Source: a virus
Virus record (IMG/VR): IMGVR_UViG_3300045988_154277
Strand: one strand, 5' to 3'
DNA length: 64,000 nt
This document shows positions 17,364 to 59,271 of this stretch, piece after piece (the first letter of the stretch is position 1; each line of letters opens with the position of its first letter). The notes under the pieces were generated by a model. It searched no databases. It saw nothing but the letters and a program-made list of their open reading frames with translations, and was not told where the DNA came from. A program made the translations under genes and the position numbers.

Positions 17364-17400
17364 TAAGCCCTCCCGATAGTCGCATACAACACACAATCAT

Positions 17401-17435
17401 AACATCGTTAGTGCTAAAACAGCACTAACGATGTT
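17401..17435. terminator. 16-bp perfect hairpin, bidirectional terminator candidate
   Basis: AACATCGTTAGTGCTA-aaac-AGCACTAACGATGTT just downstream of the gene ending at 17467. Confidence 0.55.
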
Positions 17436-17466
17436 AGATCGATTCAAACAGTAAGTAGATAGTGCA

Positions 17467-21581: not shown

Positions 21582-22259
21582 TTAAACTCTCCCTGGTATA
21601 AATGTGAGGTTCACTCTGAGCATCGGTATGTTGTGGTTGTGATACATCTCAAGAGTTTCTTGTTTTTGATTATCATAGAGTACAGTACACCGGACATTCT
21701 TGAGTGGAGTGTATTGTATCAGTTGTTTGGTGAACTCCTCCGTATCAAGATCCACGTAGAATCTGATGTTTTCCTTATCGGTTGGGAATATATCAGGACT
21801 GAACTCACGATTCAATACAGCTCGGAATGACTCTTCCGAAATGAATTGTATATCCGGTAGTACCGGGCTGGACCATAGTGAGATTTTGCGATCCCACATG
21901 GTACTCCACACAATGTTTTTACTCACTACGTAGTAGTGGAGATCGGGTCGCTGTATGCATTCGGATATGAGCATCGAGAGCAATGTCTCTGTCTTACCGG
22001 ATTGCCGACATCCGCATATTGCAGTGAACACCGGTTCCGGATGCCAAACACGAGTACGAACTTTATCAAAGAACACATCCAACTCATGGTCGTACATGTG
22101 TTCGAAGGTTCGACGAATGGTTTCGAGCTTCTCAGCTCTGTTTGGTTTAGATTGCATTAGAATCCTCCTTGGGTTGATGGGTATAACTTGTTTGTCCTTG
22201 TGATATATTAAGAGTGACATCATACAACAACGACGATCTACATTGACCAGATCAGACAT
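21582..22259 (-). CDS. P-loop NTPase with terminase-large-subunit-like Walker A (RQxGKT)
   Basis: AICGCRQSGKTETLLSML resembles the (R/K)QxGK(T/S) Walker A of phage terminase ATPases. At 225 aa it is shorter than a complete large terminase. Its start ATGTCTGATCTGGTC carries the repeat core found in the upstream cassettes. Confidence 0.45.
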   Translation of the reverse strand: MSDLVNVDRRCCMMSLLIYHKDKQVIPINPRRILMQSKPNRAEKLETIRRTFEHMYDHELDVFFDKVRTRVWHPEPVFTAICGCRQSGKTETLLSMLISECIQRPDLHYYVVSKNIVWSTMWDRKISLWSSPVLPDIQFISEESFRAVLNREFSPDIFPTDKENIRFYVDLDTEEFTKQLIQYTPLKNVRCTVLYDNQKQETLEMYHNHNIPMLRVNLTFIPGRV

Positions 22260-22279
22260 CAGGGTAGAATTGGGAGAAC

Positions 22280-22420
22280 GTTAGTTAGTTACAACACTCT
22301 TCTTAGAGAAGAGTTGTCGTCTTAATTCTCGCAGATATGCTTCTTTTGCTCTGACACGAGTCATGACCTCGTCCATATGCTGAGAAGCACTCTTACTTGA
22401 ATTAGCGTAAGAGAACGCCA
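22280..22420 (-). CDS. MAF-family small protein a (46 aa)
   Basis: TGGAGGTGATCGAT SD then ATG. MAFSYANSSKSASQHMDEVMTRVRAKEAY... is paralogous to proteins b and d (MAF/MPF...SASEHM...). Confidence 0.55.
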
Positions 22421-22580
22421 TATCGATCACCTCCAGTCTAACCGTTCAGGTACGAATGAACGGATAAGTTCGGTTAGATCAGATCTGTATGTTGTTGTAT
22501 GAGTCACTTAAATTCAAAGAGTGATAGGAAATGTTACGGCAGTTGTTGACCAGACAAGACATCAACAACCGAGTTCACTG

Positions 22581-22727
22581 GTTATTTCTGTGGATGCTTG
22601 ACGATCCATCTTCTCCAATCTAAGTTAGACTGGTTAGGATGTCTTTGCATTACAGATTGCATGTGTTCTGAAGCTGTCGGTGGGACTAATACTTCAGGAT
22701 GTTTAGCATCGATGTATGCAAATGCCA
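22581..22727 (-). CDS. MAF-family small protein b (48 aa)
   Basis: GAAGGAGGTGAGCTCT SD. MAFAYIDAKHPEVLVPPTASEHMQSVMQRH... Confidence 0.55.
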
Positions 22728-22893
22728 TAGAGCTCACCTCCTTCTACCACAAACAGGGAACTGTCTTTGTGGTGTGACAGGTTGGAGCATGTCTGTAATA
22801 CACCTCCTATCACTTAAATTCAAAAGAGTGATGGGTTGTAGATGTGCGAAAATCACCAACCAGATCAGTCATCGGTGATTTGTGTCACGTACG

Positions 22894-23068
22894 ATCATTG
22901 AGCGATAGCAACACTCGATGCTTTTGACGTGAGTTTTGCATCAATAACACGTGTTTGCTTAAGAGCATTGCGCTCCCAGCGTTGACGATCACGTGCTTCT
23001 TGTTCAGCAACACACTTGTATCCGGCATTCGGATCTAAGATGCGTTTGAAGAACTCATCTGAGGTCAT
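22894..23068 (-). CDS. small protein c (57 aa), unrelated to the MAF family
   Basis: TTAGGAGGTGATGTCAT SD. MTSDEFFKRILDPNAGYKCVAEQEARDRQRWERNALKQ... Confidence 0.5.
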
Positions 23069-23393
23069 ATGACATCACCTCCTAACTACTGTAGATTAAA
23101 CAGTCTTGCAGTAGGACTGGTTATAAGAGTCAGTAACAGAACCTCTCTCCTTCAGGTGAGGGATGTATGTTACTACGAACTATTCTTCCGTTGGACGTTA
23201 GTCCATCGTGATGTAATAGAAGGACAGTATGCTAAGAACATATGGTTAAAATGTTCTTGTTGCCTGGAACAGGCCATCGACGTAAGTCGGTGTACTCGGT
23301 AACACGAGGAAGCTCCTTCCTTCAGGTAGGAGTAGTTCACGTTCAGATCTGTAGTCACCTACCATCCATCACTCGTCTTATCGAAAAAGAGAC

Positions 23394-23431
23394 AGCTAAG
23401 GGATGAAGGATACAACTCCTTCATCCCTTAG
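23394..23431 (-). terminator. 16-bp perfect hairpin with U-run (minus strand) inside the cassette array
   Basis: GCTAAGGGATGAAGGA-gttgta-TCCTTCATCCCTTAGC followed on the minus strand by TGTCTCTTTTTCG. Confidence 0.65.
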
Positions 23432-23547
23432 CTAATCGTGTATTCGAAGTATAACTCTACACACGTTGGATATAGTAAGAACAACACTTCACAGTTGTCG
23501 AAACAACATCGACCAGATCAGTCATCGATGTTGAATTGTACTCACAT

Positions 23548-23745
23548 CTAAGTGGTTAACATTGCCACGATAGATGGCGTTTTAGTTGGTTTGTTGCTGT
23601 GATATATTCCGTAGTGTTTACGGAGCATATCCATCAACATCTTCTGCTTAGCTTTGGCACGTGCTACACGAGCATCATGCATTTCAGAAGCAGATTTAGG
23701 AGATAGCACGGTTGGGTGCTTCTCATCCATCATCGCAAACGGCAT
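23548..23745 (-). CDS. MAF-family small protein d (~65 aa)
   Basis: TTAGGAGGTGATTTGT SD then ATG (MPFAMMDEKHPTVLSPKSASEMHDARVARAKAKQKML...). The track lists a GTG-extended version. Confidence 0.55.
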   Translation of the reverse strand: MPFAMMDEKHPTVLSPKSASEMHDARVARAKAKQKMLMDMLRKHYGIYHSNKPTKTPSIVAMLTT

Positions 23746-23847
23746 ACAAATCACCTCCTAACTACCGACTCAAGCACAAGTGAGTCGATCAGCTTGGTTG
23801 GATCAGATCTGTAAAACTATGAAGTGTTGTTCAATACAAACAAGTTA

Positions 23848-23886
23848 GCTAGGGATAGTGGAGTGTTCGCCTCCACTATCCCTAGC
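23848..23886 (-). terminator. 15-bp perfect hairpin terminator after endolysin gene
   Basis: CTAGGGATAGTGGAG-tgttcgc-CTCCACTATCCCTAG directly after the TAA at 23893; T-containing tail on the minus strand. Confidence 0.6.
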
Positions 23887-23892
23887 TGGTTA

Positions 23893-24426
23893 TTAGTTGA
23901 CTTTGTTCCAGAGGTTGGACTCAGCCTGTCTACGTTTAACAAGCCCCGGTGCGATATCGTAAACGATCTTACCGTTCTTATCCTTTACGATTTTGCCCTT
24001 CGAGACTCTCTTCACTTTGTTCCATCTCTGGATCTCAGAGGGAACCGAACCATACTGGCGCTGGTTCAGTTTCTTAAGGAGAGTGGATGAAGCGAAGTTC
24101 GATCTCCCCACGTTGTAAGTGAATACGATGAGAGCAGCCTTCTGGTTGTCCGTCAGAGGGACCTTGACCTGTGTATCGATATATCCACCGATACTGGTTA
24201 CGTATCCGTCCAGAATACGATTTGCTTCTTCTTTAGTCATGTGACCACGAGCAACGAGGTTCTTATCATTAAACCCCCAACCGATGGCTTTCTTGTTGAC
24301 ATCAGTGTAGGGGGCTGAACGGAAGGTTTCGAACTGCTTGATCAGTTCGGTTGCCGAAGTCTTCCAATCTTGTGCGAAGACGTTGATGGTGAGGATGATG
24401 GTGATAAGAGTGATGATGTGTTTCAT
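23893..24426 (-). CDS. endolysin, GH24 (T4-lysozyme-like) with N-terminal signal peptide / signal-anchor
   Basis: N-terminus MKHIITLITIILTINVFAQ is hydrophobic. LIKQFETFRSAPYTDVNKKAIGWGFN matches the T4L catalytic E...D...T region ([21 protein letters not shown]). ALIVFTYNVGRSNFASSTLLKKLNQRQYGSVPSEIQRW matches [41 protein letters not shown]. Confidence 0.8.
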   Translation of the reverse strand: MKHIITLITIILTINVFAQDWKTSATELIKQFETFRSAPYTDVNKKAIGWGFNDKNLVARGHMTKEEANRILDGYVTSIGGYIDTQVKVPLTDNQKAALIVFTYNVGRSNFASSTLLKKLNQRQYGSVPSEIQRWNKVKRVSKGKIVKDKNGKIVYDIAPGLVKRRQAESNLWNKVN

Positions 24427-34050: not shown

Positions 34051-34105
34051 GTGAAAGAACATAGAACTACACTAGATTGGGATATCCCAATCTAGTGTAG
34101 ATATG

Positions 34106-38573: not shown

Positions 38574-38618
38574 TAGTTGATAGAGTGAGGAGTATGACAC
38601 TCCTCACTCTATCAACAT

Positions 38619-50734: not shown

Positions 50735-50822
50735 GATAGAACCTCCTTATTATTCATAATATTCGATTTCGCATAGCATGCCTGGCTTACGTAGCAAGCT
50801 ATCACACAAAAAAGAAAGAGAT

Positions 50823-50855
50823 GGTAGGAGGGTGACATCATGTCACCCTCCTACC
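50823..50855 (-). terminator. 14-bp hairpin + T-run intrinsic terminator
   Basis: GGTAGGAGGGTGAC-atca-TGTCACCCTCCTACC. On the minus strand it is followed by ATCTCTTTCTTTTTTGTG. Confidence 0.7.
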
Positions 50856-50883
50856 AGAGTCTCTCAAAGGTCAGCGATATCGT

Positions 50884-59149: not shown

Positions 59150-59204
59150 GTTAACCTCCTATCTTTGGCAAAAAATGTACACCTGATATACATTAATATT
59201 GCCT

Positions 59205-59245
59205 ACGTTGGATAGGTTGAGTATCGAACTCAACCTATCCAACGT
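59205..59245 (-). promoter_or_regulatory. 18-bp perfect hairpin in the 5' leader of gene 57941..59149
   Basis: ACGTTGGATAGGTTGAGT-atcga-ACTCAACCTATCCAACGT lies between the promoter-like motif at 59272 and the SD. No U-run, so more likely a processing or regulatory structure than a terminator. Confidence 0.4.
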
Positions 59246-59271
59246 ATGTGCACAACAATCATTTTCAATGA

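What the first reader, a model, noticed from the sequence alone, without database searches (positions are those of the whole stretch)
22241..23886. PeSL-like mobile regulatory cassette array carrying a paralogous family of 46-65 aa proteins between endolysin and terminase-like ATPase
In 1.6 kb there are four small genes, each with a near-perfect SD (T(A/G)GGAGGTGA). Three form a family (MAF/MPF...SASEHM...VM.R). Every gene is bracketed by the same kit of elements. Upstream is a TACAGAYCTGATCYAACC motif centred on the palindrome CAGATCTG, followed by a variable hairpin. Downstream is a hairpin whose 14-nt loop is conserved (ATGACTGATCTGGT) while the stems are completely different. The same core forms the start codon region of the downstream P-loop gene (ATGTCTGATCTGGTC) and the GTG start of a 61-aa ORF (GTGACTACAGATCTGAAC). 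Two copies of a CTTAAATTCAAAGAGTGAT hairpin and two ACCTGAAGGA-loop hairpins add to the repeat load. The architecture resembles the promoter-early stem-loop cassettes that shuttle accessory genes between T4-like genomes. It suggests a recombination hot-spot accumulating small accessory proteins, possibly anti-defence or host-takeover factors, under a common GATC-containing operator.
Basis: seen in the sequence. Interest (0 to 1): 0.7.

Follow-up and report, generated by a model that had tools for sequence, protein, structure and literature searches.

The report
RNA-clamped small-gene cassettes, jumbo phage
Downstream of the lysozyme gene of a phiKZ-like jumbo phage lie four small genes, each wrapped in the same folded-RNA frame (a helix joining its two ends plus a loop-to-leader pairing); related phages gain and lose these units, and a miniature transposon sits inside one of them.

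Summary
The repeats are real. All genes are on the minus strand. The window is a phiKZ-like jumbo phage known otherwise only from metagenome contigs of 158-361 kb.

Four small ORFs (65, 57, 48, 46 aa) are real genes (pN/pS 0.06-0.35). Three are paralogs.

The conserved motifs do not behave as a promoter or GATC operator. The upstream motif M pairs with the 12-nt loop of the downstream hairpin Lp of the same gene. This pairing covaries: CAGAUC/GAUCUG becomes CAGACA/UGUCUG or CAGGCG/CGUCUG, and 99% of cells stay paired. Each cassette is also closed by its own 15-20 bp helix, lying just 5' of M and 3' of Lp, with compensatory and G·U changes.

The two ACCTGAAGGA hairpins and the 61-aa ORF belong to a 216-nt miniature IS200/IS605 (TnpB-type) element inserted into motif M of gene B. 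Some relatives lack it.

The P-loop gene starts at 22157, not at the motif, and nothing supports 'terminase-like'.

Relatives lack cassette A, B or C or the P-loop gene. Two indels were traced, both to the inter-cassette hairpins. So PeSL-like shuffling is supported but the regulatory reading is replaced by an RNA one. What the RNA frame does (processing or stabilising is my guess) is inferred, not shown.

The parts
23893..24426 (-). Lysozyme (endolysin-type) gene, upstream neighbour. A promoter-like taTATATTAC lies at 24492-24485.
   Evidence: Pfam Phage_lysozyme E = 7.6e-29. Promoter-like motif.
23847..23887 (-). HP0: perfect 17-bp hairpin (AGCTAGGGATAGTGGAG...), terminator-like. It is one end of the cassette A indel.
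   Evidence: Relatives without cassette A carry a single such hairpin directly after the lysozyme gene.
23479..23832 (-). Cassette A. Closing-helix arms 23832-23815 and 23496-23479. M 23813-23796. Leader hairpin 23787-23766. SD plus ATG 23760-23743. Gene A 23745-23548 (65 aa). Lp hairpin 23533-23504.
   Evidence: I2; MFE contains the closing helix, z = -8.3; pN/pS 0.27. L062 has a compensated arm pair, CTTCGTA/TACGAAG.
23394..23433 (-). HP1: perfect 17-bp hairpin followed by a T-run, terminator-like. It is the other end of the cassette A indel. Its loop is flipped in a relative.
   Evidence: It is absent from L011 as a 50-nt indel.
22826..23374 (-). Cassette B. Closing-helix arms 23374-23356 and 22844-22826. 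M split into 23353-23342 and 23125-23119. Leader hairpin 23114-23086. SD plus ATG 23084-23066. Gene B 23068-22895 (57 aa). Lp hairpin 22881-22850.
   Evidence: I4; closing helix 95.6% paired, 4 pairs changed on both sides; pN/pS 0.35.
23126..23341 (+). 216-nt miniature IS200/IS605-family element (PATE-like), inserted in M of cassette B. In its own orientation (window + strand) the left-end hairpin is at about 23142-23162. The right end, with the 3' part of the TnpB guide-RNA scaffold, finishes ...GGAGTAGTTCAC at 23340 or 23341 (one base ambiguous). The '61-aa ORF' and both ACCTGAAGGA hairpins belong to it.
   Evidence: Absent from L005, L011 and L038. Its end motif occurs in 23 stretches from 21 IMG/VR contigs, in several next to the 3' end of a TnpB-like ORF on the opposite strand. 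Two 417-aa TnpB genes in the relative contig end in it.
22809..22832 (-). K1 hairpin (ATCACTCTTTTGAATTTAAGTGAT). It is a local pairing between the end of B's 3' closing arm and the start of C's 5' closing arm.
   Evidence: L042 lacks cassette C and has a single K.
22520..22814 (-). Cassette C. Closing-helix arms 22814-22798 and 22537-22520. Degenerate M 22797-22780. Leader hairpin 22772-22747. SD plus ATG 22743-22726. Gene C 22728-22582 (48 aa). Lp hairpin 22570-22542.
   Evidence: I9; z = -4.6; pN/pS 0.06.
22504..22525 (-). K2 hairpin, the second copy. It overlaps C's 3' arm and D's 5' arm.
22213..22508 (-). Cassette D. Closing-helix arms 22508-22491 and 22231-22213. M 22489-22472. Leader hairpin 22463-22442. 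SD plus ATG 22435-22419. Gene D 22421-22281 (46 aa).
   Evidence: z = -5.0; pN/pS 0.35; closing helix 99.4% paired; 7 G·U cells against 1 mismatch.
21582..22157 (-). P-loop protein gene (191 aa), itself an accessory gene. Promoter-like TATATCAC at 22207-22200 and SD AAGGAGG at 22170-22164.
   Evidence: No family assignment.

Best explanation
The locus is a variable accessory-gene array downstream of the lysozyme gene of a phiKZ-like jumbo phage. Each of the four small protein-coding genes sits in the same RNA frame.

The frame has three parts:
1. A 15-20 bp closing helix. Its 5' arm lies 1-2 nt upstream of motif M. Its 3' arm lies 5-7 nt downstream of the Lp hairpin stem.
2. A 7-bp pairing between M (positions 3-8 and 10, CAGAUC.G) and the 12-nt loop of Lp. 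This makes a pseudoknot next to the closing helix.
3. A hairpin of variable sequence abutting the strong SD.

So the 'conserved loop with different stems' and the 'upstream palindrome' are two halves of one RNA interaction. They are not DNA operator or promoter sites. These points are shown by folding and covariation.

Inferred steps:
- The cassettes are transcribed from upstream, through the partial terminators HP0 and HP1. The likely promoter is the taTATATTAC motif in front of the lysozyme gene.
- The clamp marks each unit for double-strand-specific processing (RNase III-like) and/or protects both mRNA ends. Each small gene then becomes an autonomous, stable expression unit.

Shown by comparison with relatives: the repeated frame parts and the inter-cassette hairpins (HP0/HP1, K1/K2) serve as homology for recombination that deletes, adds or swaps cassettes.

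Separately, a 216-nt PATE-like derivative of a TnpB-type IS200/IS605 element has inserted at a TTAY target inside M of gene B.
For: M:Lp pairing
- On 19 distinct M+Lp combinations from the window and relatives, 99.2% of cells pair. Shuffles give 89% (0 of 500 reach the observed value) and slid registers give 16-47%.
- Pair 7/32 occurs as UA, CG and UG. Pair 8/31 occurs as CG, AU, GC and GU.
- In cassette C the palindrome is broken (CAGACA against UGUCUG) but complementarity is kept. The two are therefore not copies of one DNA site.
- The pairing is with the loop of the same cassette, not with the adjacent one.

Closing helices
- They are present in the minimum-free-energy folds of A, D and C, with z = -8.3, -5.0 and -4.6. 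Their predicted probability is about 1 in every cassette.
- Arm sequences differ between cassettes.
- B orthologs are 95.6% paired, with 4 pairs changed on both sides.
- D orthologs are 99.4% paired. Seven cells at six pairs changed on one side, and all seven are G·U; one further cell is mismatched.
- L062 shows a compensated A helix and keeps a B frame without its ORF.

Strand
- About 23 G·U cells stand against 4 A·C-type cells across. This points to the sense-strand RNA.

Genes
- pN/pS is 0.06-0.35.
- About 30 homolog clusters exist, and every contig I retrieved for them belongs to this phage group.

Not a promoter
- No sigma-70 match lies at M.
- A different promoter-like motif, TATATTAC, occurs 6 times against 0.85 expected, always on the gene strand.
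- Only 14 nt separate HP0 from the 5' arm of A.

Shuffling.

IS element.
Against: - No transcript data exist. 5' ends, processing sites and read-through of HP0 and HP1 are all inferred.
- The both-sided covariation in M:Lp rests on few independent events, roughly three. The relatives are closely related.
- B's closing helix also shows 5 unpaired cells.
- Lp of cassettes A and B is followed by a short T-run. If it terminates efficiently, the 3' closing arm would often not be transcribed.
- Predicted SD accessibility does not change when the 3' clamp is removed, so a translational role finds no support.
- No RNase III gene or cleavage signature was identified.
- The pseudoknot was not modelled energetically.
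Confidence: 0.6

Rival explanations
1. PeSL-like DNA regulatory cassettes. M would be a promoter or operator with a GATC palindrome bound by a common regulator or RNA polymerase. Lp would be a terminator. Both would act at the DNA or transcription level.
For: - M follows terminator-like hairpins and lies 50 nt before each ATG.
- The motif is confined to this array.
- Cassette gain and loss among relatives matches PeSL behaviour (PMC2839356).
- M ends its upstream context with ...TAC, as the phage's TATATTAC motif does. In cassette C a TGTATTAC overlaps M.
Against: - No sigma-70-like hexamers at M; the whole region has 4 sites against 5.5 expected.
- The M consensus tolerates loss of GATC if the Lp loop changes in a complementary way.
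- Sequence immediately 5' of M is under pairing constraint with sequence 3' of the gene. This is hard to reconcile with a transcription start downstream of M.
- G·U-biased variation.
- The exact M occurs once in the 197-kb relative contig, so it is not a general promoter class.
Confidence: 0.12
2. Each cassette is a DNA mobile element. The flanking inverted repeats would be terminal inverted repeats, and M and Lp would be subterminal recombination or transposase sites. Cassettes would move by excision and integration.
For: - Every cassette is bracketed by a 15-20 nt inverted repeat.
- The cassette C deletion in L042 removes the unit from K1 to K2, which coincides with the ends of its inverted repeats.
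- The perfect palindrome HP1 shows a DNA-level loop flip.
- IS elements are active in these genomes.
Against: - The repeat sequences differ between cassettes, so one transposase could not recognise them.
- Arms change in a complementary way rather than being conserved.
- G·U-type asymmetry is strand-specific.
- The cassette A indel ends at HP0/HP1, not at its repeats.
- No recombinase is encoded in or beside the array.
- None of these cassettes turned up at another genomic position in the loci I examined.
Confidence: 0.1
3. A hok-like fold-back switch. The 5'-3' helix would keep the full-length mRNA translationally silent until 3' processing opens it, as in type I toxin mRNAs. The small proteins would be toxic or timing-critical effectors.
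For: - Small ORFs of 46-65 aa.
- A long-distance 5'-3' helix with coupled covariation, like the tac/fbi stem described for hok (PMC9841398).
- The SD is mostly paired in predicted ensembles (unpaired probability 0.2-0.35).
Against: - The proteins are hydrophilic and charged. The model is one long helix and not a membrane peptide.
- Predicted SD and AUG accessibility is essentially unchanged in A and B when the 3' end is removed, and the direction is inconsistent in C and D.
- No antisense RNA gene or promoter was detected.
- L062 keeps a B frame without any ORF.
Confidence: 0.1
4. The frame is a new self-processing or factor-recognised RNA, such as a small ribozyme or a recognition signal for a phage RNA-binding protein. 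The ORF would be carried as an insertion in a peripheral loop.
For: - A compact three-helix arrangement: closing helix, Lp stem and loop pseudoknot, with invariant loop nucleotides (UG..U..U.UGG).
- The frame persists without its ORF in L062.
- No Rfam family matches.
Against: - Few positions are conserved beyond the paired ones.
- No cleavage-site signature was recognised.
- The only example found outside this array is a single locus in the 361-kb contig behind L062/L081; every other exact loop match lacked a flanking stem.
Confidence: 0.06

Closest known systems
PeSL cassettes (promoter-early stem-loop) of T4-like phages (PMC2839356, PMC4122927)
   Same: Short composite repeats that flank orphan small genes in a hyperplastic region. 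Stem-loops lie between the genes. Close relatives differ by insertion, deletion and replacement of single genes, with junctions in the repeats.
   Different: PeSLs are defined by a sigma-70 consensus early promoter plus a terminator, and they act as DNA or transcription signals. Here no such promoter is present. The repeated motifs are RNA pairing partners that span the gene. The phage is a phiKZ-like type with its own RNA polymerases. Mini-circles were not testable.
hok/sok-family and other type I toxin mRNAs with a 5'-3' long-distance interaction (tac/fbi; PMC9841398)
   Same: A small ORF enclosed by a phylogenetically covarying helix between the two untranslated ends of its own mRNA.
   Different: The proteins are hydrophilic. 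No antisense partner was found. No predicted coupling to SD accessibility. There is an extra loop-to-leader pseudoknot. The units are arrayed in tandem in a lytic jumbo phage.
PATEs, the miniature IS200/IS605 elements carrying TnpB guide-RNA ends (10.1101/2023.03.14.532601; PMC8612924). This applies only to 23126-23341.
   Same: Similar subterminal hairpins at both ends. No ORF. The right end is shared with full TnpB elements. Insertion 3' of a short target (TTAY). Presence/absence polymorphism. The right-end flank equals what a TnpB guide would target in empty sites.
   Different: It resides in a jumbo phage genome. It sits inside a structured leader motif. No tnpA was seen in the sequences examined.
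RNase III processing stems that flank mature RNAs (rRNA precursors; phage T7 early mRNA sites). This comparison rests on my own knowledge.
   Same: 15-20 bp double-stranded RNA formed around or between cistrons of a polycistronic transcript.
   Different: The helices here are long-range around each mRNA rather than local intercistronic hairpins. Cleavage has not been shown.

Membership tests
PeSL (T4-like phages) | Sigma-70 consensus early promoter (-35, -10, AT-rich upstream element) in each repeat | tested here: not met
   The promoter scan finds none at M, and 4 sites in the region against 5.5 expected. M is not AT-rich.
PeSL (T4-like phages) | Stable stem-loop (terminator or attenuator) in the intergenic repeat | tested here: met
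   HP0 and HP1 (17-bp stems, T-rich tails), the Lp hairpins and the K hairpins.
PeSL (T4-like phages) | Repeats flank orphan genes in a hyperplastic region, and indels between close relatives are bounded by the repeats | tested here: met
   No homologs were found in the phage record collection or in Pfam, PHROGs or NCBIfam.
PeSL (T4-like phages) | Recombination between flanking repeats yields mini-circles | not testable with these tools
   This needs inverse PCR or long reads from infected cells.
IS200/IS605-family miniature element (PATE), for 23126-23341 | Similar subterminal hairpins at the left and right ends, with no terminal inverted repeats | tested here: met
   Both ends carry hairpins with the same loop, TCCTTCAGGT on the + strand (D10, 91).
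IS200/IS605-family miniature element (PATE), for 23126-23341 | Ends shared with autonomous or TnpB-encoding elements | tested here: met
   The same right end terminates two 417-aa TnpB genes in the relative contig (OrfB_IS605, Cas12f1-like TNB, HTH_OrfB_IS605). The end motif occurs in 23 stretches from 21 IMG/VR contigs, several with an adjacent TnpB-like ORF.
IS200/IS605-family miniature element (PATE), for 23126-23341 | Insertion polymorphism at a short specific target, without target duplication | tested here: met
   Empty sites exist in L005, L011 and L038. Empty-site sequences at three insertion sites read TTAC or TTAT at the position of the left end. The exact left boundary is ambiguous by 1-3 nt.
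IS200/IS605-family miniature element (PATE), for 23126-23341 | Mobilised by a Y1 TnpA transposase | not tested
   No tnpA was seen in the window or the loci. The full genomes were not available.
hok-like type I toxin mRNA | Small hydrophobic membrane toxin | tested here: not met
   The sequences are charged and hydrophilic. The AlphaFold2 model is one amphipathic-looking helix at pLDDT 68.
hok-like type I toxin mRNA | A covarying 5'-3' long-distance helix that closes the mRNA | tested here: met
hok-like type I toxin mRNA | The closed form sequesters the SD, and 3' processing opens it | tested here: inconclusive
   Ensemble predictions show no consistent change in SD or AUG accessibility on 3' truncation. 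This is prediction only.
hok-like type I toxin mRNA | A cis-encoded antisense RNA antitoxin | tested here: inconclusive
   No convincing plus-strand promoter or terminator pair. Phage-specific promoters are not covered by that scan.
phiKZ-type early (virion RNA polymerase) promoter | A conserved AT-rich motif of about 10 nt, repeated upstream of operons (PMC7598289) | tested here: not met
   For M it is not met: M is not AT-rich and is confined to this array. The motif that fits is taTATATTAC, found elsewhere in the window.
Integron attC gene cassettes | A conserved inverse-core/core pair (RYYYAAC/GTTRRRY) at the base of each hairpin, with a variable centre | tested here: not met
   Here the loop is conserved and the stems vary. 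No integrase was found.

The most novel reading that the evidence does not exclude
The closing helix, the loop-to-leader pseudoknot and the leader hairpin together form a new kind of portable RNA 'gene frame' in nucleus-forming jumbo phages. It would be a self-contained unit recognised by a dedicated factor, or self-processing. That unit would decide the processing, stability, localisation or export of the mRNAs of small accessory genes. It would also serve as the recombination module by which such genes are exchanged.
Probability: 0.2. Interest if true: 0.85.

Novelty: new variant of a known kind. Interest (0 to 1): 0.62.

Why it matters
- Small orphan genes of jumbo phages are a main reservoir of host-takeover and anti-defence functions. 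How they are expressed and exchanged is poorly known.
- Sequence covariation alone here identifies a repeated mRNA architecture. It explains a puzzling pattern: a conserved loop in unrelated stems, paired with an upstream palindrome.
- The architecture gives concrete nucleotides to mutate.
- The same repeats mark the breakpoints of gene gain and loss.
- It is also a clean case of a TnpB-type miniature transposon spreading within a phiKZ-like phage lineage. The flank of its right end is the sequence a TnpB guide would target in the uninterrupted leader motif (the empty site).

Tried and rejected
- No near-identical record for the locus DNA and no homolog of the gene A protein in the phage record collection.
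- Pfam, PHROGs and NCBIfam give nothing for the small proteins or the P-loop protein.
- Rfam gives only chance hairpin matches for the locus and for the ORF-less frame in L062. No intron, ribozyme or IS605 RNA family matched.
- I considered a group I intron for the 216-nt insert. I rejected it: no Rfam hit, it is intergenic, and it shares its ends with TnpB elements.
- An exact scan of viral contigs for the loop motif gave 83 stretches. This is about what my own estimate predicts for chance. Only one further locus had a flanking stem, in the 361-kb contig behind L062/L081.
- The 18-aa mini-ORF before gene C is not conserved. It is the degenerate M plus the leader hairpin.
- The GATC excess is explained by trinucleotide composition.
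- The AlphaFold2 model of the MAF family is a single helix at pLDDT 68. I did not take it to a fold search because such a model gives meaningless matches.
- A search of the window for other gene-flanking long-range inverted repeats found none of comparable quality.
- M pairing with the translation start region, seen in the fold of cassette A, is not conserved in B, C or D.
Full report
**Context**

- The window is part of a phiKZ-like jumbo phage.
  - The ORF at 25688-27235 matches the split RNA-polymerase beta-type subunits of jumbo phages at about 32% identity.
  - The ORF at 24575-25567 hits the phiKZ internal head protein family.
- No record in the phage collection is close to it.
- Relatives exist only as metagenome or virome contigs of 158-361 kb.
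- The sample names look like human-gut data sets. That is my reading of the names, not a test.
- All genes of the locus are on the minus strand. The strong AGGAGGTGA ribosome-binding sites suggest a host that uses Shine-Dalgarno pairing heavily.

**Checking the observation**

- The repeats are there.
- The four small ORFs are real genes.
  - Across relatives, pN/pS is 0.27 for A, 0.35 for B, 0.06 for C and 0.35 for D.
  - A, C and D are paralogs.
  - The family has about 30 clusters, and every contig I retrieved for them belongs to this phage group.
- Two details of the finding are wrong.
  - The P-loop gene starts at ATG 22157 behind AAGGAGG. In the 94-97% identical relative, a 1-nt and a 6-nt indel lie between the supposed ATGTCTGATCTGG start and that ATG. 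Relatives that lack the P-loop gene still keep the motif.
  - Nothing supports 'terminase-like'.

**The 216-nt insert**

- An alignment of 12 versions of the locus shows a clean 216-nt presence/absence at 23341-23126.
- The empty site reads TACAGATCTGAA|TCTAACC. So gene B has the same upstream motif M as the others, and the insert splits it.
- The first 12 nt of the insert plus the far side of its first hairpin (GTGAACTACTCC...GGAGCTTCCT) occur in 23 stretches from 21 diverse IMG/VR contigs. In several of them the sequence beside it, on the opposite strand, encodes a TnpB-like C-terminus.
- In the relative contig, two 417-aa ORFs with the OrfB_IS605, Cas12f1-like TNB and HTH_OrfB_IS605 domains end in exactly this sequence.
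- Read on the window + strand, the insert has similar hairpins near both ends with the same loop, TCCTTCAGGT.
- The empty-site sequences at three insertion sites read TTAC or TTAT where the left end sits.
- This is the architecture of a PATE-like miniature IS200/IS605 element, as described in 10.1101/2023.03.14.532601.
- The 61-aa GTG ORF lies inside it and is not a gene.
- Related copies or fragments sit at the 3' end of gene D (L014), inside gene D (L013), in the 144-aa gene (L013) and at the gene B start (L129). Smaller versions occur in L042.
- The window has no tnpB.

**What the conserved motifs are**

- *Shared layout.* All four genes share this order: M, then a hairpin of variable sequence, then the SD and the ORF, then a hairpin (Lp) whose 12-nt loop is conserved. 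Gene C has a degenerate M.
- *Closing helix.* Each cassette is bracketed by its own inverted repeat (I2, I4, I9, I15).
  - One arm lies 1-2 nt upstream of M. The other lies a few nt downstream of Lp.
  - The arm sequences differ between cassettes, but complementarity is kept.
  - Folding each cassette as RNA gives this closing helix in the minimum-free-energy structure, with z = -8.3, -5.0 and -4.6. Its ensemble probability is about 1.
  - Among B orthologs the helix is 95.6% paired, and four pairs change on both sides.
  - Among D orthologs it is 99.4% paired. Seven cells at six pairs changed on one side, and all seven are G·U; one further cell is mismatched.
  - In the 361-kb relative, the A helix carries a compensated pair.
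- *M pairs with the Lp loop of the same cassette.*
  - CAGAUC.G pairs with C.GAUCUG.
  - In cassette C both sides have changed, to CAGACA/UGUCUG, and in other lineages to CAGGCG/CGUCUG.
  - Single changes elsewhere give G·U.
  - Over 19 distinct combinations, 99.2% of cells pair. Shuffles give 89%, and slid registers give 16-47%.
  - In cassette C the two sites are complementary but not similar. They therefore cannot be two copies of one DNA-binding site.
  - The pairing fails with the neighbouring cassette's loop, so it spans the gene.
- *Strand.* The excess of G·U over A·C cells is about 23 to 4. This places the structure on the sense strand, most simply the RNA.

**Consequences**

- The 5' closing arm must be transcribed. 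M is therefore part of the leader, not the promoter.
- Only 14 nt separate HP0 from that arm in cassette A.
- No sigma-70-type site is at M.
- A different promoter-like motif, taTATATTAC, is enriched: 6 exact copies against 0.85 expected. All are on the gene strand, and five are intergenic about 45-60 nt before a start codon. One stands before the lysozyme gene, and the variant TATATCAC stands before the P-loop gene. This fits the AT-rich early-promoter type described for these phages (PMC7598289).
- I therefore infer co-transcription of the array from upstream, with HP0 and HP1 as leaky terminators or stabilisers.
- What the clamp does is not shown. A 15-20 bp duplex around each cistron suggests double-strand-specific processing and protection of both ends. 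That is my preferred reading.
- A hok-like translational switch (PMC9841398) is the nearest precedent for a covarying 5'-3' helix around a small ORF. However, the proteins are hydrophilic, and the predicted accessibility of the ribosome-binding site does not depend on the 3' arm.
- An ORF-less frame survives in L062. This hints that the RNA may have a role of its own.

**Modular evolution**

- The array differs between relatives in whole units.
  - Cassette A is absent in L013, L014, L039, L040 and L126.
  - Cassette B is absent in L013 and L126. In L062 and L129 only a remnant without its ORF is left.
  - Cassette C is absent in L042.
  - B occurs as two alleles that are 44% identical.
  - The P-loop gene is absent in five loci.
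  - The next small gene occurs in a 53-aa form, a 59-aa form, or both.
- Where cassette A is missing, one AGCTAAGGGAT hairpin follows the lysozyme gene directly.
- Where cassette C is missing, a single K hairpin joins B's Lp to D's M.
- K is itself a local pairing between the end of one cassette's 3' arm and the start of the next cassette's 5' arm.
- This is the behaviour described for PeSLs in T4-like phages (PMC2839356, PMC4122927). The promoter/operator part of that idea is not.

**Limits**

- All relatives are close, so independent covariation events are few.
- There are no transcript data.
- The pseudoknot was not evaluated energetically.
- Complete genomes could not be scanned.

Noticed in passing
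window 23411-23416 (loop of hairpin 23394-23433) against L002 4737-4742: The 6-nt loop of this perfect 17-bp palindrome is GTTGTA here and its reverse complement TACAAC in the 97% identical relative. This is a loop flip typical of template switching within a DNA palindrome.
   Followed up: partly
window 57937, 54902, 34047, 24492, 9457, 1308 (minus strand); variants at 22207, 15327, 59279: taTATATTAC occurs 6 times exactly against 0.85 expected, always on the gene strand. Five copies are intergenic, about 45-60 nt before an SD and ATG. It is probably this phage's own (virion RNA polymerase-type) promoter.
   Followed up: partly
whole window: GATC occurs 866 times, 3.5 times the base-composition expectation, but this equals the trinucleotide-based expectation (848). 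GGCC is strongly depleted: 14 copies against 36 (Markov) or 180 (composition), which suggests restriction avoidance.
   Followed up: partly
L031 6716-7969 and 10063-11316 (relative contig IMGVR_UViG_3300045988_142450): Two full-length TnpB genes (417 aa) with the same right end as the window's miniature element. TnpB-type IS elements are therefore resident in this jumbo-phage lineage. No tnpA was seen.
   Followed up: partly
L002 5923-6576; L013, L014, L039, L041, L126: In one close relative the P-loop gene reads as two ORFs of 95 and 114 aa. It is missing altogether in five others, where the same upstream region drives a 53- or 59-aa gene instead. It is an accessory gene, not a core gene.
   Followed up: partly
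L062 5076-5300 (361-kb contig IMGVR_UViG_3300045988_163688): A cassette B frame (closing arms, M, leader hairpin, Lp with the same loop but a new stem) is retained without any ORF. The neighbouring cassette A there lacks M and an SD.
   Followed up: partly
L042 95-225 and 828-879; L129 3632-3860: Shorter miniature elements (about 130-230 nt) with the same ACCTGAAGGA-type end hairpins sit at other positions of the array. In L129 one replaces the start of gene B.
   Followed up: no
window, intergenic regions (e.g. 59204-59246, 38576-38616, 34067-34100, 50822-50856, 17400-17436): Many perfect 15-19 bp hairpins with 0-9 nt loops lie between genes. These unusually long, perfect stems are the phage's general intergenic punctuation.
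   Followed up: no
L002 6754-7184; L127 4187-4617; L128 4501-4931: In these relatives the 144-aa gene downstream of the array matches in two overlapping pieces (residues 1-34 and 32-144). This suggests a frameshift or a small rearrangement.
   Followed up: no
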